Virus record (IMG/VR): IMGVR_UViG_2684622772_000013
DNA length: 47,721 nucleotides
Source: a virus
Taxonomy: Duplodnaviria; Heunggongvirae; Uroviricota; Caudoviricetes
Direction: 5' to 3' (one strand)
Part shown: piece by piece, positions 11,759-44,828 of the stretch
How positions within the stretch are numbered: the first letter of the stretch is position 1
Layout: every line of letters starts with the position of its first letter
The notes under the pieces: model-generated
Seen by the model: only the letters and a program-made list of their open reading frames with translations
The model's database searches: none
Told to the model about the DNA's origin: nothing
Program-made: the position numbers and the translations under genes

Positions 11759-11914
11759 ACGTTACTAGATCAAAGAGCATTAGTTCATATGTAAATTGAC
11801 ATTTTTCTGGCACAGGGGAGAGCTAGCGTGGTTGTCCGCTTTGTGCCAATAGCGGACATTGCTGGCTCATGGTATGTTAGTTTAAGGAGGCAGGTTATGC
11901 CCTGTATTTCGCTG

Positions 11915-11923
11915 TGGTATAAT
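11915..11923 (+). promoter_or_regulatory. Extended -10 promoter element (TGgTATAAT) upstream of the accessory cassette
   Basis: TG at 11915-11916 and TATAAT at 11918-11923, followed about 20 nt later by AAGGGAG and a GTG start at 11957. Confidence 0.45.
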
Positions 11924-11956
11924 AGTTGCGCAATTGATACAAGGGAGCGTTACATC

Positions 11957-12919
11957 GTGAAAATTGTTTTCGAGGTTAATGGAAAGAAAGTTCCACTAAA
12001 ATCTTTAAAATACATAAGCAAAAAAGATCAACTCGAAGTAATGAAAAACTGGTTCTTTGAAAACTTTGAAGATCCGGCAAATGCTTGTCCGTATGAAAGT
12101 AGAGAAGGTGGCTATGCTTACATATATGGCGGGCCGTATGATGCGAGCGAAGAACTACAATCCATCTTCGGTCAATATGTTAAATCTGAGTATATTGAGG
12201 AATTAGTAGATGAATTACAAACACAATGTTTTGACTGGTCTGGAAACTCAAATAATATAGATGATTGGTACGATGATGATATCTACGACGCTGTAACGTC
12301 TTCCGGTAATCCGTATTTAAAATTCATTGATAATATCGATAAAATAAAAAAACTTGCAAAAGATAAAACTGAACAACAGCAAAAAAACCACTTGCTTAGT
12401 TTGCTCTACACGAATGTTATTACAGCTTTGGAAACGCTTTATGTTGAGCTATTCATTAATTCTATAGAGAAAGATGATGTCTACATAGCCAATTGTATAG
12501 AAAAAGGTAAGACTGAATTTAAAGTAAGCAAAGATATTGCTGCGTTGCCTTTCAAGGGTGAACCCATCGAGAAAATTAGGGGAGAGCTAATCAGGTCAAT
12601 CAAGGAACACTTGATCAGTGCAAGCTGGCATAGCACTAAAAAGGTAATCGACCGCTATGAAGCTACATTCGATATAAAAGTACAAAAAGACTGTCCGATA
12701 GAAGCTATTGAATTGGCAACCCTCAATCGAAATCACTTAGTGCATCGTGGTGGAAAGGATAAAGAAGGGAACCTCGTAGTGATTACAGACCAGGATCTTG
12801 AAACGCTGATTGAAAATGCATCGAACCTGGCAATTATGCTCTACAACAGTTTAAATGTAGCAACGAATAAAACCACCATTTTGCAACCAGATGACAAACC
12901 GTTCATTCATGAATTTTAA
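11957..12919 (+). CDS. Accessory protein A with HEPN-like R-x4-H motif; candidate abortive-infection/RNase effector
   Basis: AT-rich ORF; proposed GTG start at 11957 (AAGGGAG 9 nt upstream), alternatives ATG 11897 or the track start 11828; C-terminal motif ELATLNRNHLVHRGG fits HEPN R-[N]-x3-H; no other family recognised. Confidence 0.55.
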   Translation: MKIVFEVNGKKVPLKSLKYISKKDQLEVMKNWFFENFEDPANACPYESREGGYAYIYGGPYDASEELQSIFGQYVKSEYIEELVDELQTQCFDWSGNSNNIDDWYDDDIYDAVTSSGNPYLKFIDNIDKIKKLAKDKTEQQQKNHLLSLLYTNVITALETLYVELFINSIEKDDVYIANCIEKGKTEFKVSKDIAALPFKGEPIEKIRGELIRSIKEHLISASWHSTKKVIDRYEATFDIKVQKDCPIEAIELATLNRNHLVHRGGKDKEGNLVVITDQDLETLIENASNLAIMLYNSLNVATNKTTILQPDDKPFIHEF

Positions 12920-12934
12920 TAGCGCAGGTCATAC

Positions 12935-13936
12935 ATGGATATTCGCACACGAAAGACAAAATTTTTAGAGTCGTTAGATTCAACTGAAGTGATACGCAAA
13001 GCAGTAAGTCTCGCTATAGATTGCATTATTGATAATCATAATAGTAATGAAGATACCCCCTTAGTTATTACCAGCTATGATGATCTCTGTAGAATCCAGG
13101 TGCTAAATTATGTACAGGAGTTTTGCGAAGCTGCATTCCCTGATATGGATGAATATTACTTTAGTCCTAACATACTTCGCATCAACGGCAAGACTAGTGA
13201 AGAAGCTTGTATTAACTTAATTAAACTCTTAAGAAGTACAAAAGGCATGCTATTCTGGTCCGATGCCCCATCGTGGTTCGCTAGCCTCCCCGACGGATTA
13301 TTCCATGTTGTTAACATTGATCAAAAAATCGTTACTCGCGGCCTTAATAAGAAAAACTCTAAGCCGACAATAATCAATAAAGATTACAGTGTAGATACAC
13401 TACTATCAGAGCTATTTTTGAATGGCGCACACATGGAGCAACCCAACGTACACAACGTTTCTGAGGGAAACATGAAGTTCTATGATGAATGCCATGCTGG
13501 ATTAATCAGACCAATACCCGCTCCAATAGGCGCGTCATACGATGAAGAGATCACAATTAATTCTCCAGATTGGCAAAAGCTCGCGTGTGTAGCTTTACGC
13601 CGCTATCAGTCGAAGGAATGTCATGACGGAATGCAATGGGATACAACCGATCATGGTTGGACTGATGTAATCGCGTATCCATTCGTCGAAGAAATACAAT
13701 CAATGGATAATAGTGGTTATCGACAATGTTTAGTTGGGCTGGTCACAATAAACAATTCAAATGCAAATTCTCCGTACCTATCTACCGTTTGGATACATCC
13801 ATTTTATCGCAGGAGAGGGTTATTAAGTAAGTTATGGCCAAAATTACAAGAGTTATATGGAAGTAACTTCGAAATTGAGCGACCTAATGAAAATATGAAA
13901 GCATTTCTGAAAAGTGCGAAACACGCAGATTACTAA
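12935..13936 (+). CDS. Accessory protein B with GNAT-like C-terminal region; candidate acetyltransferase partner
   Basis: 333 aa, AT-rich, 15 nt after gene A; C-terminal segment CLVGLVTINN...VWIHPFYRRRGLLSKLWPKL resembles GNAT motif A; N-terminal ~190 aa unrecognised. Confidence 0.55.
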   Translation: MDIRTRKTKFLESLDSTEVIRKAVSLAIDCIIDNHNSNEDTPLVITSYDDLCRIQVLNYVQEFCEAAFPDMDEYYFSPNILRINGKTSEEACINLIKLLRSTKGMLFWSDAPSWFASLPDGLFHVVNIDQKIVTRGLNKKNSKPTIINKDYSVDTLLSELFLNGAHMEQPNVHNVSEGNMKFYDECHAGLIRPIPAPIGASYDEEITINSPDWQKLACVALRRYQSKECHDGMQWDTTDHGWTDVIAYPFVEEIQSMDNSGYRQCLVGLVTINNSNANSPYLSTVWIHPFYRRRGLLSKLWPKLQELYGSNFEIERPNENMKAFLKSAKHADY

Positions 13937-14556: not shown

Positions 14557-14895
14557 CTATTTTTTGGTGCTATAGACTTTTTCGCCCGAAAAGTCTGGAG
14601 CGACCCAAAAGTTAATATTAAACTGAGCATCATCGCTTAGTTCAACACGGTGCCAGTATTGTGGTGGGCTTGTTGCAAAAGCGCCAGCATTAATGACTAC
14701 TTTTATCTCCGGTTCAGTAGCATTCTCATCAGTAAAACCATAATATGTTACAGTGCCTTCCATTACGCACAACTGCCCAAAAACACCTGCTGCTGTATTA
14801 TGATGTGTTAATAACGCTGAAGGTACGTTCTCTTTTGTGAAGAACGGAGTTGAGCGTTTGATTACCCAATCTTTAGGAATTCTCTTGTGTGTCAT
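14557..14895 (-). CDS. DUF1971 (YeaR-like) protein
   Basis: Track ORF trimmed to ATG with GGAGG ribosome-binding site (MTHKRIPKDWVIKRSTPFFTKENVPSALLTHHN...); resembles recalled E. coli YeaR. Confidence 0.65.
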   Translation of the reverse strand: MTHKRIPKDWVIKRSTPFFTKENVPSALLTHHNTAAGVFGQLCVMEGTVTYYGFTDENATEPEIKVVINAGAFATSPPQYWHRVELSDDAQFNINFWVAPDFSGEKVYSTKK

Positions 14896-15708
14896 AACCA
14901 CCTCCTCCAAAACATGCATTAAAAATGCATCTTTTGGAGGGTTATGTCAAGCTGTTATGAAACACATAATTGATATGTTGATTAGAGGAGAAGATAGAAT
15001 AAATATGGTTGTTTTTCGTATAACTATTTGTTTTACTTTTAGTTTATGCATTCTGTGTGTTAGGAATAAGTTATTAAAGTTTAATCAAAAAATCTCGATG
15101 TAGTCCACATAGATTACTGTTACTGAACCTTATTGTGTGTATTAGTTGTGTTCTGAAATTTCAGCTTAATTATTTATGATGTATTTTTTAACGATAAATA
15201 TTTTCCCAGGATACCTTTACTGTGTATATAAATAAATTATATACGCATAAATAATGTAAAGGCGTCCTTTTAGATATATCTTATCAAATGTTAATGACTT
15301 GAGTGGGAAATATGATTCCAGCAACTTATCATGTGGCTACTTTATAAAAATAATGCCCATATAAAACAACAAGCGAAAAGGATTACGGATAAAAAAGGAG
15401 CGAGATGTGCGAACTTGTTATTTTCCATGTTTAACCACCTTAAATAATTGATGATGACGGGATGATTGCATCTGTAATGCTTTTATTGAAATGTTATGAT
15501 AAAAAAGAACTTTTGCATAACATTAAAATGTAATTTATCTAATCGTTTTTAATAATAAGTGTCGTATTTCTATCCTTGTACCAGCTATTTGATATGTAGT
15601 GTTTGTTCATGCTATGTGGGGCTTTACACCATAGCCAGTTTATTTATACTTTATTCGTCAGCCTGAACAACTGGCATCTGCTGCGCTGCGCCATCGAGAG
15701 ATTGAGAA

Positions 15709-18181: not shown

Positions 18182-18610
18182 ATGGGTTTTCGTAGCGCAT
18201 CAATTCTTACGTTGATTATTAGTGGGATTATTATCGGGTGCACTGATGCTGTATCGACAAATTATCATGACCGTACATCATATTACTCCGATAAAGCAAT
18301 AGAGACACAGTATGTGAGTTCATCTGAACGTACTTCTGATGTTAGTGAGGATATCCGTCTGTATGCCCATCAAATCAAGAGCGCCATCGAAAAACAGTTC
18401 GGGGATGCGAGTAAGTATTCAGGAAAAGAGTGTACACTGAGAATGCATATGGCCCCGAATGGCCTTCTACTGGAGGTTAAAAGAGAAAGTGGAGACCTCG
18501 ATTTATGTCGTGAAGCGATGAATGCGATAAAGAATGCTGATATACCTGCCCCCCCTTCGCCGGAAGTATATAAAGTATTTCAAAATGGGGTGCTGGATTT
18601 TAAACCCTGA
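18182..18610 (+). CDS. Lipoprotein with TolA domain III-like mature region
   Basis: Signal peptide with lipobox IIGC; C-terminal ~85 aa (YAHQIKSAIEKQFGDASKYSGKECTLRMHMAPNGLLLEV...PSPEVYKVFQNGVLDFKP) closely resembles the recalled TolA C-terminus. Confidence 0.7.
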   Translation: MGFRSASILTLIISGIIIGCTDAVSTNYHDRTSYYSDKAIETQYVSSSERTSDVSEDIRLYAHQIKSAIEKQFGDASKYSGKECTLRMHMAPNGLLLEVKRESGDLDLCREAMNAIKNADIPAPPSPEVYKVFQNGVLDFKP

Positions 18611-18760: not shown

Positions 18761-19156
18761 GTGGGATTAAAGAAAATCGTTATGTTGACTTTTTGGGTCG
18801 GTTTTGTTGCGGGATGCACACCTTTACACCCTTCAGATTGCCACAAAACTACTGCTACAGGTAGTTGCAGTTCAGGACGCTGGGATGATCAGGATGAATG
18901 GGGGGCGCAAGCGCGGGGAATCAGAGCTGCAATTAATGCCAAACTTGATGAGCCGCATAACTGGAAAGGGAAAAAATGCAGGTTGCATATGGAATTCTCT
19001 CAGGATGGCACGGCGTTAAAAATATCTACCAGTAACGGTGATAAAGCCTATTGCGAAGCGATAAAGTCCGCAGCTCATAAAGCCAAATTTCCGGCCTTCA
19101 ACAATCCGGAAGTCTACAGAGATTTTCAGAAATCTGGCTTTGACATGCGAGGTTAG
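18761..19156 (+). CDS. Second, more divergent TolA-III-like lipoprotein (paralogue)
   Basis: GTG start with GAGGAG ribosome-binding site; lipobox VAGC; shares the conserved CxLxM...GD..C...A...P..NPEVY..FQ pattern. Confidence 0.6.
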   Translation: MGLKKIVMLTFWVGFVAGCTPLHPSDCHKTTATGSCSSGRWDDQDEWGAQARGIRAAINAKLDEPHNWKGKKCRLHMEFSQDGTALKISTSNGDKAYCEAIKSAAHKAKFPAFNNPEVYRDFQKSGFDMRG

Positions 19157-19623: not shown

Positions 19624-20072
19624 TGCCTCCATCATTACGAAAAGTCGTTGCTGCTGCTATTGGTGGCGGAGCAATTGCTATAGCATCAGTGTTAATCACT
19701 GGCCCAAGTGGTAACGATGGTCTGGAAGGTGTCAGCTACATACCATACAAAGATATTGTTGGTGTATGGACTGTATGTCACGGGCATACAGGAAAAGACA
19801 TCATGCTCGGTAAAACGTATACCAAAGCAGAATGCAAAACACTCTTGAATAAAGACCTTGCCACTGTCGCCAGACAAATTAACCCGTACATCAAAGTCGA
19901 TATACCGGAAACAACGCGCGGCGCTCTTTACTCGTTCGTTTACAACGTGGGCGCTGGCAATTTCAGAACATCGACGCTTCTTCGCAAAATAAACCAGGGC
20001 TATATCAAAGGCGCATGTGATCAGCTACGTCGCTGGACATATGCTGGCGGTAAGCAATGGAAAGGTCTCATG
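19623..20072 (+). CDS. SAR endolysin (R21-like lysozyme), 3' end lost in gap
   Basis: N-terminal signal-anchor-release segment [27 protein letters not shown] then lysozyme region [24 protein letters not shown]; runs into N-gap at 20073. Confidence 0.85.
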
Positions 20073-20322
20073 NNNNNNNNNNNNNNNNNNNNNNNNNNNN
20101 NNNNNNNNNNNNNNNNNNNNNNNNNNNNNNNNNNNNNNNNNNNNNNNNNNNNNNNNNNNNNNNNNNNNNNNNNNNNNNNNNNNNNNNNNNNNNNNNNNNN
20201 NNNNNNNNNNNNNNNNNNNNNNNNNNNNNNNNNNNNNNNNNNNNNNNNNNNNNNNNNNNNNNNNNNNNNNNNNNNNNNNNNNNNNNNNNNNNNNNNNNNN
20301 NNNNNNNNNNNNNNNNNNNNNN
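20073..20322. other. Assembly gap (250 N)
   Basis: Run of N; truncates the endolysin 3' end and the Rz/Rz1 5' ends. Confidence 1.
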
Positions 20323-20564: not shown

Positions 20565-20701
20565 AATCTTAACTACAATATGATTCATTTTGATGATTGT
20601 TTCATAAGGAACAGTGAAGTAAGATCTAAGAGGAGTTAAATTTTATACAGTATAATCATAATATTGCAGCAAGGTGGTTATAATTGAAAGAATATTTAGA
20701 T

Positions 20702-22159
20702 ATGAATACATCTCATGTAAGAGTTGTTACTCATATGTGTGGGTTCCTGGTTTGGCTCTATAGTCTTTCAATGTTGCCACCAATGGTTGTAGCATTGTTT
20801 TATAAAGAAAAAAGCCTGTTCGTTTTCTTTATAACTTTCGTTATATTTTTTTGCATTGGTGGCGGAGCGTGGTATACAACTAAGAAATCTGGCATTCAAT
20901 TACGTACCCGTGATGGGTTTATTATAATTGTAATGTTTTGGATTTTGTTTTCTGTTATTAGTGCATTCCCTTTATGGATTGACTCAGAACTTAATTTAAC
21001 GTTCATTGATGCTCTGTTTGAAGGGGTTTCTGGAATAACAACAACAGGAGCAACTGTAATTGATGATGTTAGTTCATTACCTCGGGCATATTTGTACTAT
21101 CGGTCACAGTTAAATTTTATAGGTGGTTTAGGAGTTATTGTTCTGGCGGTTGCAGTATTGCCATTATTGGGTATTGGTGGTGCAAAGCTTTATCAGTCAG
21201 AAATGCCGGGGCCATTTAAGGATGACAAACTCACTCCCCGCCTGGCCGATACGTCACGGACACTGTGGATAACTTATTCTTTATTAGGTATTGCTTGTAT
21301 TGTCTGTTATAGACTTGCAGGAATGCCTTTGTTTGATGCTATTTGTCACGGGATTTCCACAGTTTCGCTTGGTGGTTTCTCAACTCATAGCGAGAGTATC
21401 GGATATTTTAATAACTATTTGGTTGAGCTGGTGGCTGGTTCTTTTTCCCTGCTATCGGCTTTCAACTTCACTCTTTGGTATATTGTTATTAGCAGAAAAA
21501 CGATAAAACCTTTAATCAGAGATATTGAACTTCGTTTCTTTCTGTTAATAGCCTTAGGGGTGATCATTGTTACCTCTTTCCAGGTCTGGCATATAGGTAT
21601 GTATGACTTGCATGGAAGTTTTATTCATTCGTTTTTTCTTGCCAGCTCCATGCTCACTGATAATGGTTTAGCTACGCAGGATTATGCAAACTGGCCCACG
21701 CACACGATAGTGTTTTTGCTGTTGTCAAGTTTCTTTGGGGGATGTATAGGTTCAACCTGTGGTGGAATTAAGTCACTTCGATTTCTTATACTTTTCAAAC
21801 AAAGCAAACACGAGATAAATCAGCTTTCTCATCCCAGAGCGTTGTTGAGTGTAAATGTAGGAGGGAAGATAGTTACAGATCGTGTAATGAGGTCTGTATG
21901 GAGTTTCTTTTTTCTTTATACTCTCTTCACGGTGTTTTTTATACTGGTGTTAAATGGTATGGGATATGATTTTCTTACATCATTTGCAACAGTGGCTGCA
22001 TGTATTAATAATATGGGATTAGGTTTTGGGGCTACTGCATCGTCATTCGGAGTGCTTAATGACATTGCAAAATATTTAATGTGCATAGCTATGATTCTTG
22101 GTCGCCTTGAAATTTATCCTGTTATTATATTGTTTTCAGGTTTTTTTTGGCGCTCCTAA
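20702..22159 (+). CDS. trkG: TrkG potassium uptake protein (prophage moron)
   Basis: Track ORF trimmed to MNTSHVRVVTHMCGFLVWLYSLSMLPP (485 aa), matching recalled TrkG; multi-pass membrane protein; AT-rich relative to flanks. Confidence 0.92.
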   Translation: MNTSHVRVVTHMCGFLVWLYSLSMLPPMVVALFYKEKSLFVFFITFVIFFCIGGGAWYTTKKSGIQLRTRDGFIIIVMFWILFSVISAFPLWIDSELNLTFIDALFEGVSGITTTGATVIDDVSSLPRAYLYYRSQLNFIGGLGVIVLAVAVLPLLGIGGAKLYQSEMPGPFKDDKLTPRLADTSRTLWITYSLLGIACIVCYRLAGMPLFDAICHGISTVSLGGFSTHSESIGYFNNYLVELVAGSFSLLSAFNFTLWYIVISRKTIKPLIRDIELRFFLLIALGVIIVTSFQVWHIGMYDLHGSFIHSFFLASSMLTDNGLATQDYANWPTHTIVFLLLSSFFGGCIGSTCGGIKSLRFLILFKQSKHEINQLSHPRALLSVNVGGKIVTDRVMRSVWSFFFLYTLFTVFFILVLNGMGYDFLTSFATVAACINNMGLGFGATASSFGVLNDIAKYLMCIAMILGRLEIYPVIILFSGFFWRS

Positions 22160-22296
22160 TATATGGCTGATTTATAATTGTGAGTTTAATATTATGTTGA
22201 CTCACTCATTGATCCAATACCTAACTTTACCAGCAACACCTCCGCCCCCAGTAGCACTGGCTGCTGGGGTGCGTTTTATTCATAAAGCAAGGCTGT

Positions 22297-23085
22297 ATGA
22301 GCGAGAAATTAAAGATAGTCTATCGCCCATTACAAGAATTGTCACCGTATGCGCACAACGCCAGGACGCACAGTACTGAGCAGGTGGCACAACTGGTAGA
22401 AAGTATTAAGCAATTCGGCTGGACTAATCCGGTGCTGATTGACGAAAAGGGCGAAATTATTGCGGGTCACGGTCGTGTTATGGCGGCTGAAATGCTCAAA
22501 ATGGATTCTGTTCCGGTCATTGTTCTGTCTGGCCTGACGGATGAGCAGAAAAAGGCGTACCGCCTGGCAGATAATCGCCTGCCGATGAATGCTGGCTGGG
22601 ATGAAGATCTGTTGCGGATGGAGCTGTCGGACCTAATCAATGCTGATTTTGATGTCTCCCTGACAGGCTTCATCCCGGCAGAAATTGATGAACTGTTGAC
22701 GGATGTTTTGCCCGGTACAGGAAATGAGGAGGAGCCGTATACGACGAAAATTGATACGCCTGTTTATGAGCCGTCAGGCGGTAAACCGGATATCAGTGAA
22801 CTGTACGACGATACGAAAACTCAGGAGCTGATCAGCCGGATACGTTCGGCGTCCCTTGATCCTGATATTGAGAAATTCCTCCTGTGTGCAGCAGAACGTC
22901 ACACGGTGTTTAATTTCAGCAGAATTGCGGACTATTACGCTCATGCCCCCGCTGAAATTCAGTGCCTTTTCGAGGAGTCGGCGCTGGTGATCATTGATTA
23001 TCAGCAGGCTATTGAAAATGGATTTGTCCGAATGACGCAGCGCATGGTGGAGATCATGCATGGCGGGGAGGAGGAATATGCGTGA
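22297..23085 (+). CDS. ParB N-terminal domain (ParB/sulfiredoxin-like) protein
   Basis: N-terminal KIVYRPLQELSPYAHNARTH...NPVLIDEKGEIIAGHGRVMAAEM resembles the ParB box region; 262 aa with unassigned C-terminal half. Confidence 0.65.
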   Translation: MSEKLKIVYRPLQELSPYAHNARTHSTEQVAQLVESIKQFGWTNPVLIDEKGEIIAGHGRVMAAEMLKMDSVPVIVLSGLTDEQKKAYRLADNRLPMNAGWDEDLLRMELSDLINADFDVSLTGFIPAEIDELLTDVLPGTGNEEEPYTTKIDTPVYEPSGGKPDISELYDDTKTQELISRIRSASLDPDIEKFLLCAAERHTVFNFSRIADYYAHAPAEIQCLFEESALVIIDYQQAIENGFVRMTQRMVEIMHGGEEEYA

Positions 23086-24010
23086 TGATTTTTGCGCCTT
23101 TATTCTGACTCACGGGCGACCGGACAAAGTTCTGACTTACCGGACGTTGCGTCGTGCTGGCTATACCGGGAAAATTTTTATCGTTGTTGATGATGAAGAT
23201 AAGACACGGCATCAGTACATGGCTGAATTTGGTGAACAGGTGCTGGTATTTTCCAAAGCCGATATTGCTAGTCGTTTTGACGAAGCCGATAATTTTAGTG
23301 ACCGCCGCTCAATTTTTTACGCCCGTAATGCCTGTTTCGACCAGGCAAAACTGGTCGGGTGTAAATACTTCATTCAGCTCGATGATGATTATCACGAGTT
23401 CCAGTTTCGGGTGGATCGCAACTATGACCAGGCCTATTTCCCGATAAGGAAACTGGATGAGATCCTTTCTGAAATGCTTGCGTACTACGAATCAATACCT
23501 GCTCTTTCCATCGCTATGTCGCAGGGCGGGGATTTTCTTGGTGACAATGGCGGCCATGCTTCGTGGGTGAAACGCAAGGCAATGAACAGCTTTATCTGTT
23601 CGGTTGATCGACCGTTCTCATTCATGGGGCGCATTAACGAGGATGTGAATACGTACACGAATCTCGGTCGCTGTGGTGAATTGTTTATGACGATCGGTGC
23701 TGTCCAGTTAGGGCAGAAACAGACGCAGAAAAACAGCGGCGGAATGACCGAGCTGTATCTGGATTCCGGAACCTACGTTAAAAGTTTTTACTCCGTCATG
23801 TATGCGCCGTCGTGCGTAAAAATCTCACTTATGGGTGCCAGTCATAAACGCATTCACCATCAGGTCACCTGGAACAACGCTGCAGTAAAAATCCTTCACG
23901 AAAAATACAGGAAGAAGACACCCTGCATATCAATGGGGGTGACAAATGATTCCGTATTCGAAAGTCGAGTCTCTGGCAGCGTGCCGGATGACTGCACAAC
24001 AAATCGCTGA
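23078..24010 (+). CDS. Putative GT-A-fold glycosyltransferase-like protein
   Basis: Start chosen at second ATG with GGAGG ribosome-binding site, overlapping the upstream stop; AFILTHGRPDKVL...KIFIVVDDEDK and a DxD-like QLDDDY motif. Confidence 0.4.
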   Translation: MRDDFCAFILTHGRPDKVLTYRTLRRAGYTGKIFIVVDDEDKTRHQYMAEFGEQVLVFSKADIASRFDEADNFSDRRSIFYARNACFDQAKLVGCKYFIQLDDDYHEFQFRVDRNYDQAYFPIRKLDEILSEMLAYYESIPALSIAMSQGGDFLGDNGGHASWVKRKAMNSFICSVDRPFSFMGRINEDVNTYTNLGRCGELFMTIGAVQLGQKQTQKNSGGMTELYLDSGTYVKSFYSVMYAPSCVKISLMGASHKRIHHQVTWNNAAVKILHEKYRKKTPCISMGVTNDSVFESRVSGSVPDDCTTNR

Positions 24011-24197
24011 CGTTCTGGATGTTGATCTGAACCGACTGAAAGAAAATCGGGAAGCAATGACAGATTTTTATGCGGCCATCCGTAAGGGCAGAGCGAAAGG
24101 TGAAGCCGAGTTACGAGCGGCATTGTTTAAGCTTGCCAGAAAAGGGGATGCCTTTGCTCTGCGCGAACTACTCAGGGTGGATAAAAATCAGGACTAA
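23988..24197 (+). CDS. Small putative DNA-binding protein upstream of terminase
   Basis: 69 aa from internal ATG (MTAQQIADVLDVDLNRLKENREAM...); overlaps the upstream gene end. Confidence 0.45.
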   Translation: MTAQQIADVLDVDLNRLKENREAMTDFYAAIRKGRAKGEAELRAALFKLARKGDAFALRELLRVDKNQD

Positions 24198-24200
24198 CTG

Positions 24201-25295
24201 ATGAGCAGACCGGACTGGGGGGCGTTGCAGCAGGAGTATATTGCTGAATACACCCGCTCCGGTATATCTCCGGTGGCATGGTGTGAAGCAAGGGGACTGA
24301 ATTACGCAACAGCCCGTCGTTACATCAAAAAAACTCCGAAAAATGCGCAGACAGAAATGTGCAAAACTGCGCAAAAAAGTGCGCAGAAAAAATCTGCGCA
24401 GACTGCACAAAAGCGGAACGAAAAATCTCAGGAAAAAAAGCCAGTATTCGATGCGGGCCTGAATGAGGGCGACGCGGAGGAATTTTCGTTCTGTCCCGAT
24501 GAATTCGGCATTTCTGACCAGCAGGCTAAGTTTGCGATGCTTGTTGCTCAGGGTAAAAAGCCGACAGAGGCGTACCGACTAGCCGGTTATGAGGGGCAAG
24601 GTGCGACAGCTAACAGCAACGCCAGTCGTATGCTTAGAAATGCCAGGGTTTTTCGCGCTATCAGCTACTTCCGCAATCAGTACCAGAAACGCTATACCGC
24701 AGACCTGGATTTACTAGTGAGTCAGTTGATGGCTATTGTCCTGGCCGACCCCAATCAGCTTGCACAATTTCGCCGTGTTAACTGCCGTTATTGCTGGGGC
24801 GAGAATCATCTCTACCAGTGGCGCGATATAGCAGAATTCGACAAGGCAGCGGCGCAGGCTTCCAGAGATGGCAAACCCGAACCGGAATATGGAGGCCTCG
24901 GCTTTGTTGATAACGCCATACCCAATCCGGACTGCCCGAAGTGCTGCGGTGAGGGAACGGGACAGCTTTATATGGCTGATACCACTCTGCTTGATGGGGA
25001 TGCGCGGCAATTATATGCAGGGGCAAAATTCGGAAAATTCGGCGTTGAGATCCTGCTGGAGGATAAGGCTGCCGCCCGGCGTGAATTGTTGCGTTTGTTT
25101 TCTGCTGGCGGGGCTTTATGTGCAGATAAGCGGCTACGGGAACTGGAAATTGAACGGCGCAGAATGGAAAACCAGAAGCTGCGCAAAGAGATCGAAACGG
25201 TGGAAGATAATGAACATCCCCAGCCTGTGGCGATCAATATTAATGTGGTTGATGCCAGAGTAAGGAGTGATGAAGATGATCTCTCCGACGCTTAA
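24201..25295 (+). CDS. Terminase small subunit-like protein
   Basis: Segment QQAKFAMLVAQGKKPTEAYRLAGY...NASRMLRNARVFRAI typical of small terminases; C-terminal Cys cluster (CRYC...CPKCC); immediately upstream of the large terminase. Confidence 0.65.
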   Translation: MSRPDWGALQQEYIAEYTRSGISPVAWCEARGLNYATARRYIKKTPKNAQTEMCKTAQKSAQKKSAQTAQKRNEKSQEKKPVFDAGLNEGDAEEFSFCPDEFGISDQQAKFAMLVAQGKKPTEAYRLAGYEGQGATANSNASRMLRNARVFRAISYFRNQYQKRYTADLDLLVSQLMAIVLADPNQLAQFRRVNCRYCWGENHLYQWRDIAEFDKAAAQASRDGKPEPEYGGLGFVDNAIPNPDCPKCCGEGTGQLYMADTTLLDGDARQLYAGAKFGKFGVEILLEDKAAARRELLRLFSAGGALCADKRLRELEIERRRMENQKLRKEIETVEDNEHPQPVAININVVDARVRSDEDDLSDA

Positions 25296-26577
25296 TGTGC
25301 CTCAGGCGCGATTTCTTTCAATGCCCCATAAATTTAAAGCCTATATTGCTGGTTTTGGCTCGGGCAAAACATGGGTTGGGTGTGGCGGCATATGCAAGGG
25401 GATTTGGGAGCATCCAGGTATAAATCAGGGATATTTTGCGCCAACGTATCCCCAAATTCGCGATATTTTTTACCCTACAGTGGAAGAAGTTGCTGCTGAC
25501 TGGGGATTGAACGTAAAAATTAATGAGGGAAATAAAGAGGTTCACTTTTATTACGGACGCCAGTATCGGGGAACCACTATCTGCAGATCGATGGAGAAGC
25601 CACAAACGATCGTCGGTTTCAAAATTGGTAATGCGTTGGTGGATGAACTGGACATTTTGCCGAAGGAAAAAGCCAGAACGGCGTGGCGCAAGATAATTGC
25701 ACGTATGCGTTATAAGATTGATGGACTTCGCAACGGTATTGACGTTACAACCACGCCGGAAGGATTCAAATTTGTCTACGAGCAGTTTGTTAAAGCCGTG
25801 CGTGAAAAAACAGAGCTGGCCTCACTGTATGGTCTGGTGCAGGCATCTACTTTCGATAATGAAAAGAACCTGCCAGCAGATTACATTCCTTCGCTTCTTG
25901 AATCATACCCTCCAGAGCTGATTAAAGCCTATCTTCGAGGACAGTTTACTAACCTGACAAGTGGTACTGTTTACCATCAGTTTGACCGGAAACTGAATAA
26001 TTGCGAAGAAGTGGAGCAGCCAGGGGAGCCGATTTATATTGGGATGGATTTTAACGTTGGAAAGATGGCGGGAATCGTCCATGTGCTGCGTTTGGGGCTT
26101 CCATGTGCGGTAACTGAAATCATCAATGCCTACGATACGCCGGATATGATCCGCATCATTAAAGAACGCTTCTGGCTGTATGATGGGAATGATTACCGGA
26201 AAGTGAGGGAAATTTATATTTATCCAGATGCTTCCGGGGATTCCAGAAAATCAAGTAACGCAAGTACGACGGATATAGCCCAGCTTAAGCAGGCTGGTTT
26301 TAACGTTGTGGTGAACAGCTCGAACCCGCCAGTAAAAGATCGCGTTAACTCAATGAATGCAATGTTCTGCAATGCCAATGGTGAGCGTCGCTATAAAGTT
26401 AATGTGAAGCGTTGCCCGTTATATGCCGAATCTCTGGAGCAACAGGTCTGGGATGAGAAGGGGGAGCCTGATAAAAAATCTGGCAATGATCACCCGAATG
26501 ATGCCGGAGGTTATTTCATCGTTAAGCAATTCCCTATTGTCAAACCGACCGGAAGAGTCACATCACTTCGGATTTAA
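25276..26577 (+). CDS. Terminase large subunit
   Basis: Walker A IAGFGSGKTW near N-terminus; start placed at ATG 8 nt after AAGGAG (alternatives at 25267 GTG and 25270 ATG). Confidence 0.85.
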   Translation: MISPTLNVPQARFLSMPHKFKAYIAGFGSGKTWVGCGGICKGIWEHPGINQGYFAPTYPQIRDIFYPTVEEVAADWGLNVKINEGNKEVHFYYGRQYRGTTICRSMEKPQTIVGFKIGNALVDELDILPKEKARTAWRKIIARMRYKIDGLRNGIDVTTTPEGFKFVYEQFVKAVREKTELASLYGLVQASTFDNEKNLPADYIPSLLESYPPELIKAYLRGQFTNLTSGTVYHQFDRKLNNCEEVEQPGEPIYIGMDFNVGKMAGIVHVLRLGLPCAVTEIINAYDTPDMIRIIKERFWLYDGNDYRKVREIYIYPDASGDSRKSSNASTTDIAQLKQAGFNVVVNSSNPPVKDRVNSMNAMFCNANGERRYKVNVKRCPLYAESLEQQVWDEKGEPDKKSGNDHPNDAGGYFIVKQFPIVKPTGRVTSLRI

Positions 26578-39082: not shown

Positions 39083-39332
39083 NNNNNNNNNNNNNNNNNN
39101 NNNNNNNNNNNNNNNNNNNNNNNNNNNNNNNNNNNNNNNNNNNNNNNNNNNNNNNNNNNNNNNNNNNNNNNNNNNNNNNNNNNNNNNNNNNNNNNNNNNN
39201 NNNNNNNNNNNNNNNNNNNNNNNNNNNNNNNNNNNNNNNNNNNNNNNNNNNNNNNNNNNNNNNNNNNNNNNNNNNNNNNNNNNNNNNNNNNNNNNNNNNN
39301 NNNNNNNNNNNNNNNNNNNNNNNNNNNNNNNN
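39083..39332. other. Assembly gap (250 N)
   Basis: Run of N between the L and K homologues. Confidence 1.
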
Positions 39333-40555: not shown

Positions 40556-43500
40556 ATGGGTAAAGGCAGCAGTAAGGGGCATACCCCGCGCGAAGCGAAG
40601 GACAACCTGAAGTCCACGCAGCTGCTGAGTGTGATCGATGCCATCAGTGAAGGGCCGGTTGAAGGTCCGGTGGATGGATTAAAAAGCGTGCTGCTGAACA
40701 GTACGCCGGTGCTGGACAATGAGGGGAATACCAACATCTCCGGCGTCACGGTGGTGTTCCGGGCAGGTGAGCAGGAGCAGTCACCGCCGGAGGGGTTTGA
40801 ATCCTCCGGCTCCGAGACGGTGCTGGGTACGGAAGTGAAATATGACACGCCGATCACCCGGACCATCACGTCGGCAAACATCGACCGTCTGCGCTTTACC
40901 TTCGGTGTACAGGCACTGGTGGAAACCACCTCAAAGGGAGACAGGAATCCGTCGGAAGTCCGCCTGCTGGTTCAGATACAGCGTAACGGTGGCTGGGTGA
41001 CGGAAAAAGACATCACCATTAAGGGCAAAACCACCTCGCAGTATCTGGTCTCGGTGGTGGTGGATAACCTGCCTCCGCGCCCGTTCAGTATCCGGATGCG
41101 CAGGATGACACCGGACAGCACCACAGACCAGCTGCAGAACAAAACGCTCTGGTCGTCATACACCGAAATCATCGATGTGAAACAGTGCTACCCGAACACT
41201 GCACTGGTCGGCGTACAGGTGGACTCGGAGCAGTTCGGCAGCCAGCAGGTGAGTCGTAATTATCATCTTCGCGGGCGCATTCTGCAGGTGCCGTCGAACT
41301 ATAACCCGCAGACGCGACAATACAGCGGTATCTGGGACGGAACGTTAAAACCAGCATACAGCAACAACATGGCCTGGTGTCTGTGGGATATGCTGACCCA
41401 CCCGCGCTACGGCATGGGGAAACGTCTTGGTGCGGCGGATGTGGACAAATGGGCGCTGTATGTCATCGGCCAGTACTGCGACCAGTCAGTGCCGGACGGC
41501 TTTGGCGGCACGGAGCCGCGCATCACCTGTAATGCGTACCTGACCACACAGCGCAAGGCGTGGGATGTGCTCAGTGATTTCTGCTCGGCGATGCGCTGTA
41601 TGCCGGTATGGAACGGGCAGACGCTGACGTTCGTGCAGGACCGACCGTCGGATAAGGTGTGGACCTATAACCGCAGTAATGTGGTGATGCCGGATGATGG
41701 CGCGCCGTTCCGCTACAGCTTCAGCGCCCTGAAAGACCGCCATAATGCCGTTGAGGTGAACTGGATTGACCCGGATAACGGCTGGGAGACGGCGACAGAG
41801 CTTGTGGAGGATACGCAGGCCATTGCCCGTTACGGTCGTAACGTCACGAAGATGGATGCTTTTGGCTGTACCAGCCGGGGGCAGGCACACCGCGCCGGGC
41901 TGTGGCTGATTAAAACAGAACTGCTGGAAACGCAGACCGTGGACTTCAGCGTGGGCGCAGAAGGGCTTCGCCATGTGCCGGGCGATGTCATTGAAATCTG
42001 TGATGATGACTATGCGGGTATCAGCATCGGCGGGCGCGTGCTGGCGGTAAACAGCCAGACCCGGACGCTGACGCTCGACCGTGAAATCACGCTGCCATCC
42101 TCCGGTACCATGCTGATAAGCCTGGTTGACGGAAGTGGCAATCCGGTCAGCGTGGAGGTTCAGTCCGTCACCGACGGCGTGAAGGTGAAAGTGAGCCGTG
42201 TTCCTGACGGCGTTGCTGAATACAGCGTGTGGGGGCTGAAGCTGCCGACGTTGCGCCAGCGCCTGTTCCGCTGTGNNNNNNNNNNNNNNNNNNNNNNNNN
42301 NNNNNNNNNNNNNNNNNNNNNNNNNNNNNNNNNNNNNNNNNNNNNNNNNNNNNNNNNNNNNNNNNNNNNNNNNNNNNNNNNNNNNNNNNNNNNNNNNNNN
42401 NNNNNNNNNNNNNNNNNNNNNNNNNNNNNNNNNNNNNNNNNNNNNNNNNNNNNNNNNNNNNNNNNNNNNNNNNNNNNNNNNNNNNNNNNNNNNNNNNNNN
42501 NNNNNNNNNNNNNNNNNNNNNNNNNNNNNNNNNNNNNNNNNNNNNNNNNNNNNNNNNNNNNNNNNNNNNNNNNNNNNNNNNNNNNNNNNNNNNNNNNNNN
42601 NNNNNGCTGACAGTCCGGGCGGTAAATGCCTGGGGACAGCAGGGCGATCCGGCGTCGGTATCGTTCAGGATTGCCGCACCGGTAGCACCGTCGCGGATTG
42701 AGCTGACGCCGGGCTATTTTCAGATAACTGCCACGCCGCATCTTGCGGTTTATGATCCGACGGTACAGTTTGAGTTCTGGTTCTCGGAAACGCGGATTAC
42801 CGATATCAGGCAGGTTGAAACCACAGCCCGCTACCTTGGCGCGGGGCTGTACTGGATAGCCGCCAGTATCAATATCAAACCGGGCCATGATTATTACTTT
42901 TATATCCGCAGTGTGAACACCGTTGGCAAATCGGCATTCGTGGAGGCCGTCGGTCGGGCGAGCGATGATGCGGAAGGTTACCTGGATTTTTTCAAAGGCA
43001 AGATAACCGAATCCCATCTCGGTAAAGAGCTGCTGGAAAAAGTTGATCTGACGGAGGATAACGCCAGCAGACTGGATGAGTTTTCGAAAGAGTGGAAGGA
43101 CGCTAACGATAAATGGAATGCGATGTGGGGCGTCAAAATTGAGCAGACCAAAGACGGCAAACATTATGTCGCGGGTATTGGCCTCAGCATGGAGGACACG
43201 GAGGAAGGCAAGCTGAGCCAGTTTCTGGTTGCCGCCAATCGTATCGCGTTTATTGACCCGGCAAACGGGAATGAAACGCCGATGTTTGTGGCGCAGGGCA
43301 ACCAGATATTCATGAACGACGTGTTCCTGAAGCGCCTGACAGCCCCCGCCATTACCAGCGGTGGCAGTCCTCCGGTATTTTCCCTGACATCAGACGGAAA
43401 GCTGACCGCTAAAAATGCGGATATCAGTGGTAGTGTGAATGCGAACTCAGGAACGCTCAACAATGTCACGATTAACCAGAACTGTACGATTAAGGGCATG

Positions 43501-44023: not shown

Positions 44024-44828
44024 ATGCGTAAAGTTTGTGCCGCCATTTTGTCCGCAGCCATTTGTCTGGCCGTATCCGGTGCGCCTGCATGGGCGTCTGA
44101 ACATCAGTCCACGCTGAGCGCGGGGTATCTTCATGCCCGGACCAACGTTCCCGGCAGTGATGATCTGAACGGGATTAACGTGAAATACCGTTATGAGTTT
44201 ACGGATACGCTGGGGCTGGTGACGTCATTCAGCTATGCAGGAGACAAGAATCGCCAGCTGACCCGTTACAGCGATACCCGCTGGCATGAAGATTCCGTGC
44301 GTAACCGCTGGTTCAGCGTGATGGCGGGGCCGTCTGTGCGCGTGAATGAATGGTTCAGCGCGTATGCGATGGCGGGTGTGGCTTACAGCCGTGTGTCGAC
44401 TTTTTCCGGGGATTATATCCGCGTAACTGACAATAAGGGGAAAACGCACGATGTGCTGACCGGAAGTGATGACGGTCGCCACAGCAACACNNNNNNNNNN
44501 NNNNNNNNNNNNNNNNNNNNNNNNNNNNNNNNNNNNNNNNNNNNNNNNNNNNNNNNNNNNNNNNNNNNNNNNNNNNNNNNNNNNNNNNNNNNNNNNNNNN
44601 NNNNNTTTCTCCGGGGATTATCTCCGCGTAACTGACAACAAGGGGAAAACGCACGACGTGCTGACCGGAAGTGATGACGGTCGCCACAGCAACACGTCTC
44701 TGGCGTGGGGAGCTGGCGTGCAGTTTAACCCGACCGAATCCGTGGCCATTGATATTGCTTATGAAGGCTCCGGCAGTGGCGACTGGCGCACTGACGGTTT
44801 CATCGTGGGTGTCGGTTATAAGTTCTGA
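44024..44828 (+). CDS. lom: Outer membrane protein Lom (Ail/Lom family), interrupted by gap 44491..44605
   Basis: Signal peptide MRKVCAAILSAAICLAVSGAPAWA and C-terminal ...GFIVGVGYKF beta-barrel terminus; the gap is flanked by a near-identical ~90-bp duplicate. Confidence 0.85.

What the first reader, a model, noticed from the sequence alone, without database searches (positions are those of the whole stretch)
22297..24010. ParB-like protein translationally coupled to a glycosyltransferase-like protein upstream of terminase
A 262-aa protein with a ParB N-terminal-type domain is followed, with an 8-nt overlap and a GGAGG site, by a ~310-aa protein with GT-A-like features (hydrophobic strand before VVDDEDK, DxD-like LDDDY). 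ParB-fold proteins occur in DNA-modification pathways and soluble GT-A enzymes in phages can glycosylate DNA or proteins, so this may be an epigenetic or anti-restriction module. The equivalent K-12 position holds only remnants.
Basis: inference. Interest (0 to 1): 0.6.

Follow-up and report, generated by a model that had tools for sequence, protein, structure and literature searches.

The report
Phage sugar-transferase with obligate acidic partner
A Rac-type E. coli prophage carries, just before its DNA-packaging genes, a soluble sugar-transferase of the family that sugar-coats phage DNA together with an always-present acidic partner protein, yet nothing that makes the usual attachment point for the sugar, so its target is unknown and could be a new DNA or protein modification.

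Summary
ORF1 (22297-23085, 262 aa) has a ParB/Srx N-terminal domain. ORF2 (23078-24010, 310 aa) overlaps it by 8 nt behind a GGAGG site. It is a GT-A glycosyltransferase of Pfam TAGT (E 3.7e-34) with intact R...DDD...ED motifs. K-12 keeps only an 87-aa ynaK stump.

New here: the constant partner of this TAGT clade is ORF1's C-terminal ~115-aa acidic domain, not the ParB domain. That domain carries the motif Y-[TS]-x-K-[IV]-x-x-P-x-Y. Of 234 related loci not cut at a contig end, 230 encode it upstream of TAGT. All 76 loci fetched with the domain alone have TAGT downstream. It often stands alone (~130 aa). ORF1's N-module is the one fused to phage DNA methyltransferases.

The pair sits before terminase or inside replication modules, in phages of Enterobacteria, Lactobacillus, Vibrio and Nocardia and in a haloarchaeal virus. 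The pair is ≥80% covered in 889 of 5,426 complete E. coli genomes, under purifying selection. No TET/JBP or hydroxymethylase was found with it.

Best reading (0.45): late-expressed, partner-dependent glycosylation of phage DNA. Main rival (0.25): protein glycosylation, possibly of the partner. This is a new variant of a known kind. Interest 0.6.

The parts
22246..22269 (+). Terminator-like hairpin (10-bp stem, 7 G-C pairs, then a T-rich tail) between trkG and ORF1. No good sigma-70 promoter match lies between it and ORF1.
   Evidence: Inference: the pair is read from the phage late transcript, not as a lysogenic moron.
22297..23085 (+). ORF1, full-length YnaK, 262 aa. An acidic partner protein (pI 4.5, net charge -24).
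   Evidence: dN/dS is 0.09-0.13.
22297..22716 (+). ORF1 aa 1-140: ParB/Srx NTP-binding-type N-module. Box II reads G57-H-G-R60 and box III reads D92-N93. A short helical extension follows.
22732..22776 (+). ORF1 aa 146-160, PYTTKIDTPVYEPSG. A conserved linear motif, Y-[TS]-x-K-[IV]-x-x-P-x-Y-E-P, in a segment predicted disordered.
   Evidence: pLDDT is below 50 for aa 136-156. Both tyrosines are 100% conserved, T/S 98% and P 97% in 192 sequences below 80% identity.
22777..23082 (+). ORF1 aa 161-262: helical acidic C-terminal domain (AAxRH...SALVIIDxxxAIExG). Together with the motif it is the constant TAGT partner.
   Evidence: It has no Pfam match and no meaningful PDB sequence match.
23066..23074 (+). 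Shine-Dalgarno sequence GGGAGGAGG for ORF2, inside the 3' end of ORF1.
23078..24010 (+). ORF2, 310 aa: soluble GT-A glycosyltransferase of the TAGT family (RefSeq name 'GREB1-related protein'). The last ~22 aa are an Escherichia-lineage extension, also seen in close relatives down to ~75% identity (L058, L059, L062), with low model confidence.
23381..23392 (+). Codons for D102-D103-D104-Y105, the DxD metal and nucleotide-sugar motif. These residues are invariant in the close family.
23946..24197 (+). 83-aa ORF overlapping the 3' end of ORF2. It resembles a TerS-type helix-turn-helix protein. Context only.
   Evidence: phrog_309 at 8e-23. A homologous 82-aa gene follows the pair in Yersinia.
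24201..26577 (+). Terminase small subunit (24201-25295) and large subunit (25267-26577). This is the conserved downstream context of the pair.
   Evidence: A TerL-like gene lies about 1.4 kb downstream in 58 of 80 diverse loci.

Best explanation
ORF1 and ORF2 form a self-contained two-gene module, made late in lytic growth, that glycosylates phage DNA after replication and before or during packaging.

ORF2 is the catalyst. It is a soluble GT-A enzyme of the TAGT family that uses a nucleotide-sugar held by its DDD motif.

ORF1 is its obligate partner. Its C-terminal acidic domain, together with the Y-[TS]-x-K...P-x-Y motif, binds and activates or positions ORF2. Its N-terminal ParB/Srx nucleotide-binding module is the same module that phages fuse to DNA methyltransferases. 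That module couples the enzyme to DNA or gates it by NTP binding, in the way a ParB-like protein activates its cognate phage thymine dioxygenase on double-stranded DNA.

Progeny DNA would then carry sugars that blunt restriction in the next host, while the prophage copy stays unmodified.

Shown here: fold, catalytic motifs, family membership, strict two-way gene coupling, overlapping reading frames, position in the late and replication modules, and purifying selection. Inferred: the physical ORF1-ORF2 complex, DNA as acceptor, the identity of the sugar, the timing, and the anti-restriction benefit. Because no hydroxymethyl-pyrimidine source exists in this phage, the acceptor would have to be a canonical base or the backbone, or a site made by an unrecognised activity.
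For: ORF2 family and fold:
- Pfam TAGT at 118.9 bits.
- R14, D102-104 and E188-D189 are conserved. They match the R...DDD...ED active-site pattern described for DNA-acting phage GT-A enzymes and JGT (preprint 10.1101/2023.12.21.572611).
- Family members with a described activity act on DNA (PMC13216743, PMC13390438).

ORF1 N-module:
- It is homologous to the N-terminal module of phage DNA methyltransferase fusions.

Precedent:
- Phage ParB-like proteins with an NBD, a disordered linker and a CTD, and without an HTH, activate a cognate DNA-modifying enzyme on dsDNA (PMC13229309). ORF1 is predicted to have the same layout.

Coupling:
- A partner lies upstream of TAGT in 85/85, 79/79 and 66/70 loci.
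- TAGT lies downstream of the C-terminal domain in 76/76 loci.
- Stop/start overlaps of 8-26 nt recur from E. coli to a haloarchaeal virus.

Context:
- The module lies directly before terminase genes, or among primase, exonuclease, helicase, PolA and RecA genes.
- A terminator and no promoter precede ORF1.

Glycan building in relatives:
- Relatives are fused to a second TAGT, a SAM methyltransferase or a sulfotransferase.

Selection:
- dN/dS is about 0.1 for both genes.
Against: - No TET/JBP, thymidylate-synthase-type hydroxymethylase or other hydroxylase is annotated or detected in the prophage.
- None was found among the recurrent neighbours, or among the 25 top Pfam families of 139 neighbour clusters, in the diverse loci. 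The precomputed Pfam annotation of the ±8-9 kb contexts lists none either.
- From general knowledge, lambdoid phages replicate with host enzymes and canonical dNTPs, so DNA offers no ordinary hydroxyl acceptor. No glycosyltransferase is known to act on unmodified DNA bases.
- The partner is strongly acidic throughout (pI 4.5, net -24) and has no recognisable HTH. That is odd for a DNA-loading factor.
- The ParB module is dispensable in many relatives. 115 of the 120 best C-terminal-domain hits are stand-alone proteins.
- GREB1, a TAGT-family member, is reported to O-GlcNAcylate Thr/Ser of a protein (PMC7968844).
Confidence: 0.45

Rival explanations
1. ORF2 glycosylates a protein, not DNA. The most economical version is that its acceptor is its own partner. 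A Thr/Ser or Tyr of the invariant Y-[TS]-x-K...P-x-Y motif, in the disordered linker of ORF1, receives a sugar. In relatives that sugar is extended, methylated or sulfated. The glycosylated acidic protein then acts in packaging, is carried into the next host, or serves as a decoy. Other versions have ORF2 modify virion proteins or a host protein.
For: - The enzyme is coupled to one small protein and to nothing else.
- The motif lies in a predicted disordered segment. Its two tyrosines are 100% conserved and the second position carries a hydroxyl in 98% of 192 diverse sequences.
- The partner is acidic and the enzyme mildly basic.
- No DNA acceptor pathway was found.
- GREB1 of the same family is reported to modify Thr/Ser of ERalpha.
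Against: - Strong conservation of about 20 further residues across the helical domain fits a docking or regulatory subunit better than a mere acceptor peptide.
- ORF1's N-module is the one attached to DNA methyltransferases.
- The module sits in replication and packaging contexts rather than among structural genes.
- Most characterised family members act on DNA.
Confidence: 0.25
2. The pair does act on DNA, but on a hydroxylated base supplied by an activity that was not recognised. The conserved R-H...D residues of the ORF1 C-terminal domain could make the acceptor. Alternatively, rare oxidised bases or ribonucleotides in DNA could be the target.
For: - The C-terminal domain has invariant polar residues: R201 99%, H202 97%, E226 99%, D234 100%.
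- It has no known fold match.
- It always accompanies the transferase.
Against: - A ~100-aa helical acidic domain does not resemble any known DNA hydroxylase, and no cofactor-binding motif was found.
- The low-confidence model gives no pocket to inspect.
Confidence: 0.08
3. The pair is a lysogenic-conversion cargo. ORF2 alters a cell-envelope glycan (O-antigen, ECA or capsule precursor) in the lysogen, as the gtr and tarP prophage genes do. The ParB-like gene is incidental.
For: - The pair lies next to the trkG moron, between the lysis and packaging genes, which is a common cargo site.
- TarP and GT2 enzymes are among the structural neighbours.
Against: - There are no membrane segments and no GtrA/GtrB partners.
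- A terminator and no promoter lie upstream.
- The same pair occurs in phages of Gram-positive bacteria and in a haloarchaeal virus, whose envelopes differ entirely.
- The coupling to the partner protein is strict.
Confidence: 0.04
4. ORF1 is a conventional ParB used for prophage or plasmid partition, or for pac-site recognition, or it is a 'ParB-like nuclease'. ORF2 is an unrelated neighbour.
For: - Databases name ORF1 a partition protein or nuclease.
- It lies next to the terminase genes.
Against: - It scores below the TIGR00180 cut-off (38.1 bits against 58.45).
- There is no ParA gene and no ParB-type HTH hit, and the phage integrates into the chromosome.
- The ParB module is absent from many partners, while the link to TAGT is kept.
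Confidence: 0.03

Closest known systems
TET/JBP-associated glycosyltransferases (Pfam PF20691): phage GT-A enzymes acting on 5hmC, kinetoplastid base-J glucosyltransferase JGT, and the T2/T6 beta-glucosyl-HMC-alpha-glucosyltransferase
   Same: Same Pfam family, same GT-A fold, same R...DDD...ED active-site pattern, soluble, phage-encoded. Relatives carry extra sugar-tailoring domains.
   Different: No TET/JBP, C5-methyltransferase, dCMP/dUMP hydroxymethylase or first-step alpha/beta-GT accompanies it. The T-even enzymes are too distant for tblastn at 1e-3: only Aeromonas phage 65 was hit, at 22% identity. This clade instead has its own obligate partner protein.
ParB-dependent phage thymine dioxygenases (5mYOX/ParB pairs; O'Toole et al. 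2026, PMC13229309)
   Same: A ParB-like protein with a nucleotide-binding domain, a disordered linker and a C-terminal domain, without an HTH, is encoded next to a post-replicative DNA-modifying enzyme that needs it. Glycosyltransferase and terminase genes often co-occur.
   Different: The enzyme here is a glycosyltransferase, not a dioxygenase, and no dioxygenase is present. In this system the ParB module is often absent and the C-terminal domain alone is kept.
ParB-N / DNA methyltransferase fusion proteins of phages and prophages (phrog_498; PADLOC MTase_II; Kaljevic et al. 2025, PMC12704722)
   Same: ORF1 aa 1-144 is homologous to their N-terminal module (E 6e-51 and 1.5e-38).
   Different: In place of a fused methyltransferase domain, ORF1 carries the TAGT-partner domain, and the enzyme is a separate polypeptide.
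GREB1 (animal TAGT-family O-GlcNAc transferase of ERalpha; PMC7968844)
   Same: Same glycosyltransferase family. RefSeq names ORF2 'GREB1-related protein'. It is a precedent for a protein Thr/Ser acceptor.
   Different: GREB1 is a 1,949-aa multidomain eukaryotic protein. It shares no partner and no genomic context with ORF2.
Phage Mu Mom (late, post-replicative adenine modification)
   Same: Proposed logic only: a late-expressed enzyme modifies canonical bases of progeny DNA before packaging, leaving the prophage unmodified.
   Different: Unrelated protein (acetyltransferase-like fold) and different chemistry. The resemblance is recalled from general knowledge, not tested.

Membership tests
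TAGT (Pfam PF20691) DNA-base glycosyltransferases | Sequence match above the curated threshold | tested here: met
   118.9 bits against a cut-off of 27.5, aa 8-222. phrog_842 at 7.5e-104.
TAGT (Pfam PF20691) DNA-base glycosyltransferases | GT-A fold with R...DDD...ED catalytic pattern | tested here: met
TAGT (Pfam PF20691) DNA-base glycosyltransferases | Genomic association with a TET/JBP dioxygenase or a hydroxymethyl-pyrimidine pathway | tested here: not met
   None in the prophage. None among recurrent neighbours or the top Pfam families in diverse loci. None in the precomputed Pfam annotation of the ±8-9 kb contexts examined.
TAGT (Pfam PF20691) DNA-base glycosyltransferases | Transfers a sugar to 5hmC, 5hmU or glucosyl-5hmC in DNA | not testable with these tools
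   Needs LC-MS of DNA or an enzyme assay.
T2/T6 beta-glucosyl-HMC-alpha-glucosyltransferase (the PHROG and RefSeq label) | Acts after a first glucosyltransferase on hmC-containing DNA in T-even phages | tested here: not met
   No alpha-GT, beta-GT or hmC pathway in the window. T2/T6 were not retrieved by tblastn. The label is a family-level transfer.
ParB/Srx N-terminal (CTPase-type) fold | Pfam ParB_N match and fold | tested here: met
ParB/Srx N-terminal (CTPase-type) fold | Box II arginine (GxxR) and box III (D/E)N phosphate-binding residues | tested here: met
   G57-H-G-R60 aligns with GERR of Noc, and D92-N93 with EN. These residues are invariant in the close family.
ParB/Srx N-terminal (CTPase-type) fold | Binds or hydrolyses an NTP | not testable with these tools
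   Needs DRaCALA or ITC.
Canonical partition ParB (ParABS) | Full-length ParB model, HTH DNA-binding domain, ParA partner, parS sites | tested here: not met
   TIGR00180 at 38.1 bits against a cut-off of 58.45. No HTH family hit. No ParA gene in the prophage. No repeat cluster near the gene.
ParB-dependent DNA-modifying enzyme pairs (5mYOX/ParB) | ParB-like NBD, disordered linker and CTD without an HTH, encoded next to the enzyme | tested here: met
   AF2 model: NBD aa 1-92, helices 103-134, disordered 136-156, helical CTD 166-255. Adjacency.
ParB-dependent DNA-modifying enzyme pairs (5mYOX/ParB) | The cognate enzyme is a 5-methylpyrimidine dioxygenase | tested here: not met
   The cognate enzyme is TAGT. 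No dioxygenase is present.
ParB-dependent DNA-modifying enzyme pairs (5mYOX/ParB) | The partner is required for activity on double-stranded DNA | not testable with these tools
   Needs co-expression and in vitro assays.
ParB-N / DNA methyltransferase fusions | N-terminal ParB module plus a fused N6/N4 or SAM methyltransferase domain | tested here: not met
   The N-module is shared, but ORF1 has no methyltransferase domain.
Seroconverting prophage glycosyltransferases (Gtr-type) | Membrane-associated GT with flippase and other partners, expressed in the lysogen | tested here: not met
   Maximum 19-aa hydropathy is 1.08. No gtr genes. A terminator and no promoter lie upstream.

The most novel reading that the evidence does not exclude
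The pair installs a sugar directly on canonical DNA, on an unmodified base or the backbone, without any prior hydroxymethylation. A previously unrecognised ~115-aa acidic cofactor domain would make the site accessible or reactive. This would be a new chemistry of DNA modification. It would be present in lambdoid prophages of about one in six complete E. coli genomes, and in phages of many bacterial phyla and of haloarchaea.
Probability: 0.25. Interest if true: 0.9.

Novelty: new variant of a known kind. Interest (0 to 1): 0.6.

Why it matters
TAGT enzymes without a hydroxymethyl-pyrimidine pathway have been noticed but left unexplained. One 2026 survey found them 'solitary' in 288 of 753 phage genomes. 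Another study set aside about 65% of glycosyltransferase contigs for lacking 5mYOX or ThyS.

This locus places one such enzyme in a tractable setting, an inducible Rac-type prophage of E. coli. It also supplies a concrete handle, because the enzyme always comes with one small acidic partner domain.

If the target is DNA, this widens the known chemistry of phage DNA modification. It would also affect restriction, CRISPR and sequencing of common temperate coliphages. If the target is the partner protein, it is a new phage protein-glycosylation system. It would also be an independent microbial case bearing on the debated protein activity of GREB1. Either outcome is reachable with a two-gene co-expression and mass spectrometry.

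Tried and rejected
- PDB sequence searches with the TAGT profile found nothing meaningful.
- PDB sequence searches with the C-terminal-domain profile found nothing meaningful either. In one search the N-domain columns dominated the profile.
- The afdb50 fold library was unavailable, so structural closeness to JGT and GREB1 could not be measured.
- Iyer et al. 2013, which defined TAGT and discussed ParB linkage, is not held. What it says is cited only through later papers.
- A 'ynaK' text search returned noise.
- NCBIfam has no specific model for either protein. PADLOC has none for ORF2.
- Searching IMG/VR with the P-loop-kinase/TAGT fusion P0267 found no locus that keeps the N-terminal kinase-like part. 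I therefore could not test whether that domain substitutes for the ParB module.
- Literature on HHTV-2 gave no information on DNA modification.
- The supplement of the 5mYOX/ParB paper is not held, so ParB176 could not be compared with ORF1.
- Repeat scans gave no parS-like cluster near ORF1.
- Considered and rejected: a partition ParB, a ParB nuclease, Gtr-type seroconversion, and the literal database label 'beta-glucosyl-HMC-alpha-glucosyltransferase'. Reasons are given in the rivals and the membership table.
Full report
WHAT IS THERE

The window is a Rac-type lambdoid prophage of E. coli. Its gene order is recT/recE, racC, kilR, sieB, the immunity and replication genes, a Q-like gene, the lysis cassette, the trkG cargo gene, then the finding, then terminase, portal, head and tail genes.

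ORF1 runs 22297-23085 (262 aa). ORF2 starts at ATG 23078, 8 nt inside ORF1, behind GGGAGGAGG, and ends at 24010 (310 aa). Nearly all of the homologues shown begin at or within a few residues of M-R-D-D-F, which supports the 23078 start rather than the ATG at 23060.

K-12 MG1655 keeps only an 87-aa 5' fragment, ynaK, followed by ydaY and ynaA. In a set of 5,426 complete E. coli genomes, 1,580 have a match and 889 have at least 80% of the pair. Ten phage records carry it, nine of them Escherichia phages named vB_EcoS-...R. Both genes are under purifying selection, with dN/dS of 0.07-0.13.

ORF2

It matches Pfam TAGT (TET-Associated Glycosyltransferase) at 118.9 bits and PHROG 842 at 7.5e-104. 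RefSeq calls it 'GREB1-related protein'.

R14, D38/D41, D102-D104-Y105, Q149-G-G-D152 and N187-x-D189-V190 are invariant in the close family, and E188 is at least 90% conserved. The core of this pattern persists at 41% mean identity. It corresponds to the R...DDD...ED pattern described for DNA-acting phage GT-A enzymes and JGT.

ORF2 has no membrane segment.

ORF1

Residues 1-144 are the same module that phages fuse to DNA methyltransferases. The evidence is phrog_498 at 6e-51, PADLOC MTase_II at 1.5e-38, and 433 phage records by tblastn, many annotated as methylases.

ORF1 is not a canonical partition ParB. It scores below the TIGR00180 cut-off, has no HTH hit, and has no ParA partner.

After a helical hairpin comes a segment predicted disordered (aa 136-156). 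It holds the conserved PYTTKIDTPVYEPS, and a helical C-terminal domain follows (aa 166-255). The whole protein is acidic, with pI 4.5 and net charge -24. ORF2 is mildly basic.

THE MAIN NEW RESULT: THE PARTNER IS THE C-TERMINAL DOMAIN

An ORF1 homologue lies immediately upstream of the TAGT gene in three sets of loci:
- 85 of 85 close loci.
- 79 of 80 diverse IMG/VR loci. The exception is cut at the contig end.
- 66 of 70 further loci.

In roughly a fifth of the diverse loci the upstream protein is only 135-166 aa. It corresponds to ORF1 aa ~140-262 alone. Searching with that domain alone gave two results:
- 76 of 76 newly fetched viral loci have TAGT downstream.
- In the 5.8-billion-protein collection there were 3,573 hits, and 115 of the best 120 are stand-alone ~130-aa proteins with no Pfam domain.

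In 192 sequences below 80% identity the motif is Y(100%)-[T 76%/S 22%]-x-K(88%)-[I/V]-x-x-P(97%)-x-Y(100%)-E-P. In the helical part, R201, H202, Y214, Q222, E226, D234 and G242 are 97-100% conserved. The domain has no detectable relative among solved structures.

Stop/start overlaps of 8-26 nt between partner and TAGT recur in Yersinia, soil and marine phages, Lactobacillus phage phi jlb1 and the haloarchaeal virus HHTV-2.

The unit is therefore 'acidic domain + TAGT'. The ParB/Srx module is a frequent N-terminal addition, present and conserved in E. coli.

CONTEXT AND WHAT IS MISSING

The only recurrent neighbours in 80 diverse loci are a large terminase (58 loci, about 1.4 kb downstream) and a small HTH or TerS-like gene (28 loci).

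In large lytic phages the module sits among replication genes instead:
- Between primase, exonuclease and helicase genes in Vibrio phage SRILMA, where the upstream 139-aa protein aligns with the acidic C-terminal domain.
- Between PolA and RecA, with a HAD phosphatase and a cytidylyltransferase, in a 144-kb contig.

No TET/JBP dioxygenase or hydroxymethylase was found in any of these places:
- Nowhere in the prophage.
- Not among the 25 top Pfam families of 139 neighbour-cluster representatives.
- Not in the precomputed Pfam annotation of the ±8-9 kb contexts examined.

Relatives of ORF2 are fused to a second TAGT, to a class-I SAM methyltransferase (also found as a separate gene between partner and TAGT), to a sulfotransferase, or to a P-loop kinase-like domain. 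This points to the building of tailored glycans.

In the window a strong terminator-like hairpin (22246-22269) follows trkG, and no sigma-70-like promoter precedes ORF1. By inference, the pair opens the Q-dependent late transcript together with the packaging genes.

HOW IT MOST LIKELY WORKS

I commit, at 0.45, to a partner-dependent, late, post-replicative glycosylation of phage DNA. The arguments are these:
- Family membership of ORF2 and the DNA activity of most characterised members.
- The methyltransferase-type N-module on the partner.
- The published precedent that a phage ParB-like protein with the same NBD-linker-CTD layout activates its cognate thymine dioxygenase on dsDNA.
- The replication and packaging context.

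The weak point is chemical. Without hydroxymethyl-pyrimidines there is no ordinary acceptor. This reading therefore implies either glycosylation of canonical DNA, which would be new, or an unrecognised acceptor-forming step.

The partner's acidity and the frequent absence of the ParB module also fit poorly with a DNA loader.

The main rival (0.25) is protein glycosylation, most simply of the partner's own invariant Tyr/Thr motif. It has GREB1 as a family precedent, and glycogenin, ppGalNAc-T and SunS among the structural neighbours.

Minor rivals are an unrecognised hydroxylase role for the C-terminal domain (0.08), envelope seroconversion (0.04) and a conventional ParB role (0.03).

COMPARISON WITH WHAT IS KNOWN, AND NOVELTY

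Both families are named in databases. Recent papers note 'solitary' TAGT homologues (288 of 753 phage genomes). They also note that most GT-A contigs lack 5mYOX or ThyS, and that ParB genes accompany DNA-hypermodification clusters. The existence of such genes is therefore known.

I did not find the following described:
- The strict two-way coupling of this TAGT clade to a specific ~115-aa acidic domain with a Y-[TS]-x-K...P-x-Y motif.
- The modular relation of that domain to the methyltransferase-type ParB module.
- The point that in a lambdoid coliphage the pair stands without any acceptor-making enzyme.

I rate this a new variant of a known kind, with interest 0.6. The most novel reading not excluded is direct glycosylation of canonical DNA, with probability about 0.25 and interest 0.9 if true.

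LIMITS

- All functional statements beyond fold, motifs and synteny are inference.
- The model of ORF1 is of modest confidence (pLDDT 66.7).
- Locus counts come from tblastn and HMM hits on metagenomic contigs, many of them short.
- The Pfam survey of neighbours shows only the 25 commonest families, so a rare TET/JBP neighbour cannot be excluded.
- Iyer et al. 2013 could not be read.

Noticed in passing
window 20684-22159 (trkG) and 22246-22269: trkG has 37.7% GC against 47% for the window. It sits as a cargo gene between the lysis cassette and the late genes and has its own strong terminator-like hairpin. Late transcripts must read through that hairpin to reach ORF1, ORF2 and the terminase genes.
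   Followed up: partly
window 24326-24402 (inside the terminase small-subunit gene): There are three to four direct repeats of AAAAA-N-TGCGCAGA, spaced 15-36 nt apart. They could be TerS binding or pac-site repeats.
   Followed up: no
window 11828-12919 and 12935-13936: Two adjacent ORFs of 363 and 333 aa lie between the replication and nin-like regions. They have only sub-threshold Pfam hits (HEPN/RES N-terminal domain at 2e-4; GNAT at 9e-4) and no PADLOC hit. The second is annotated as frameshifted in strain EC2. They may be cargo or a defence pair.
   Followed up: partly
window 14557-14919 (- strand): A DUF1971 (TehB/YeaR-like) gene lies on the opposite strand to its neighbours, a typical moron arrangement.
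   Followed up: no
window 18182-18610 and 18761-19156: Two ORFs lie just upstream of the holin gene. The first has a TolA C-terminal domain by Pfam. RefSeq annotates both in strain EC2 as TolA-type, one as a partial tolA gene.
   Followed up: no
window 23946-24197 versus 23078-24010: The E. coli ORF2 carries a ~22-aa C-terminal extension absent from most homologues below ~85% identity (typical length ~288 aa), though close relatives down to ~75% identity (L058, L059, L062) also match nearly full length. The extension overlaps the next 83-aa ORF by 65 nt and has very low model confidence. It looks like read-through after loss of the ancestral stop codon.
   Followed up: partly
window 20073-20322, 39083-39332, 42276-42605, 44491-44605: Four runs of N (250, 250, 330 and 115 bases) mask parts of the lysozyme/Rz region and of tail genes. 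ORFs spanning them are unreliable.
   Followed up: yes
L004 2180-3332 (Yersinia enterocolitica prophage): Genes for a heat-labile-enterotoxin-like A subunit (Enterotoxin_a/Scabin-like) and a type II B subunit (LT-IIB) lie directly upstream of the ParB-like/TAGT pair. They are absent from the otherwise matching locus L005.
   Followed up: no
L088, L095, L097 (IMG/VR contigs); proteins P0248, P0254, P0280, P0265: A ~255-aa class-I SAM methyltransferase ending in WNNRP is either inserted between the partner and TAGT or fused to TAGT at either end. Its substrate, sugar or base, is unknown.
   Followed up: partly
L301 3179-6280 (144-kb viral contig): Two TAGT genes lack the acidic partner. They are interleaved with a HAD-like phosphatase and a cytidylyltransferase-like gene, between PolA and RecA genes. 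This looks like a partner-independent variant with its own sugar activation.
   Followed up: partly
protein P0081 (381 aa): This is the single case of a partial partner C-terminal domain (aa 3-73) fused in frame to TAGT (aa 80-357). It may be a real fusion or a sequencing or gene-calling artefact.
   Followed up: no
L001 (strain EC2), 20001-20258: PGAP annotates the intact 262-aa ORF1 as a partial ynaK pseudogene ('missing C-terminus'), apparently because the reference protein is the truncated K-12 YnaK. This is an annotation artefact that hides the full-length gene in many genomes.
   Followed up: partly
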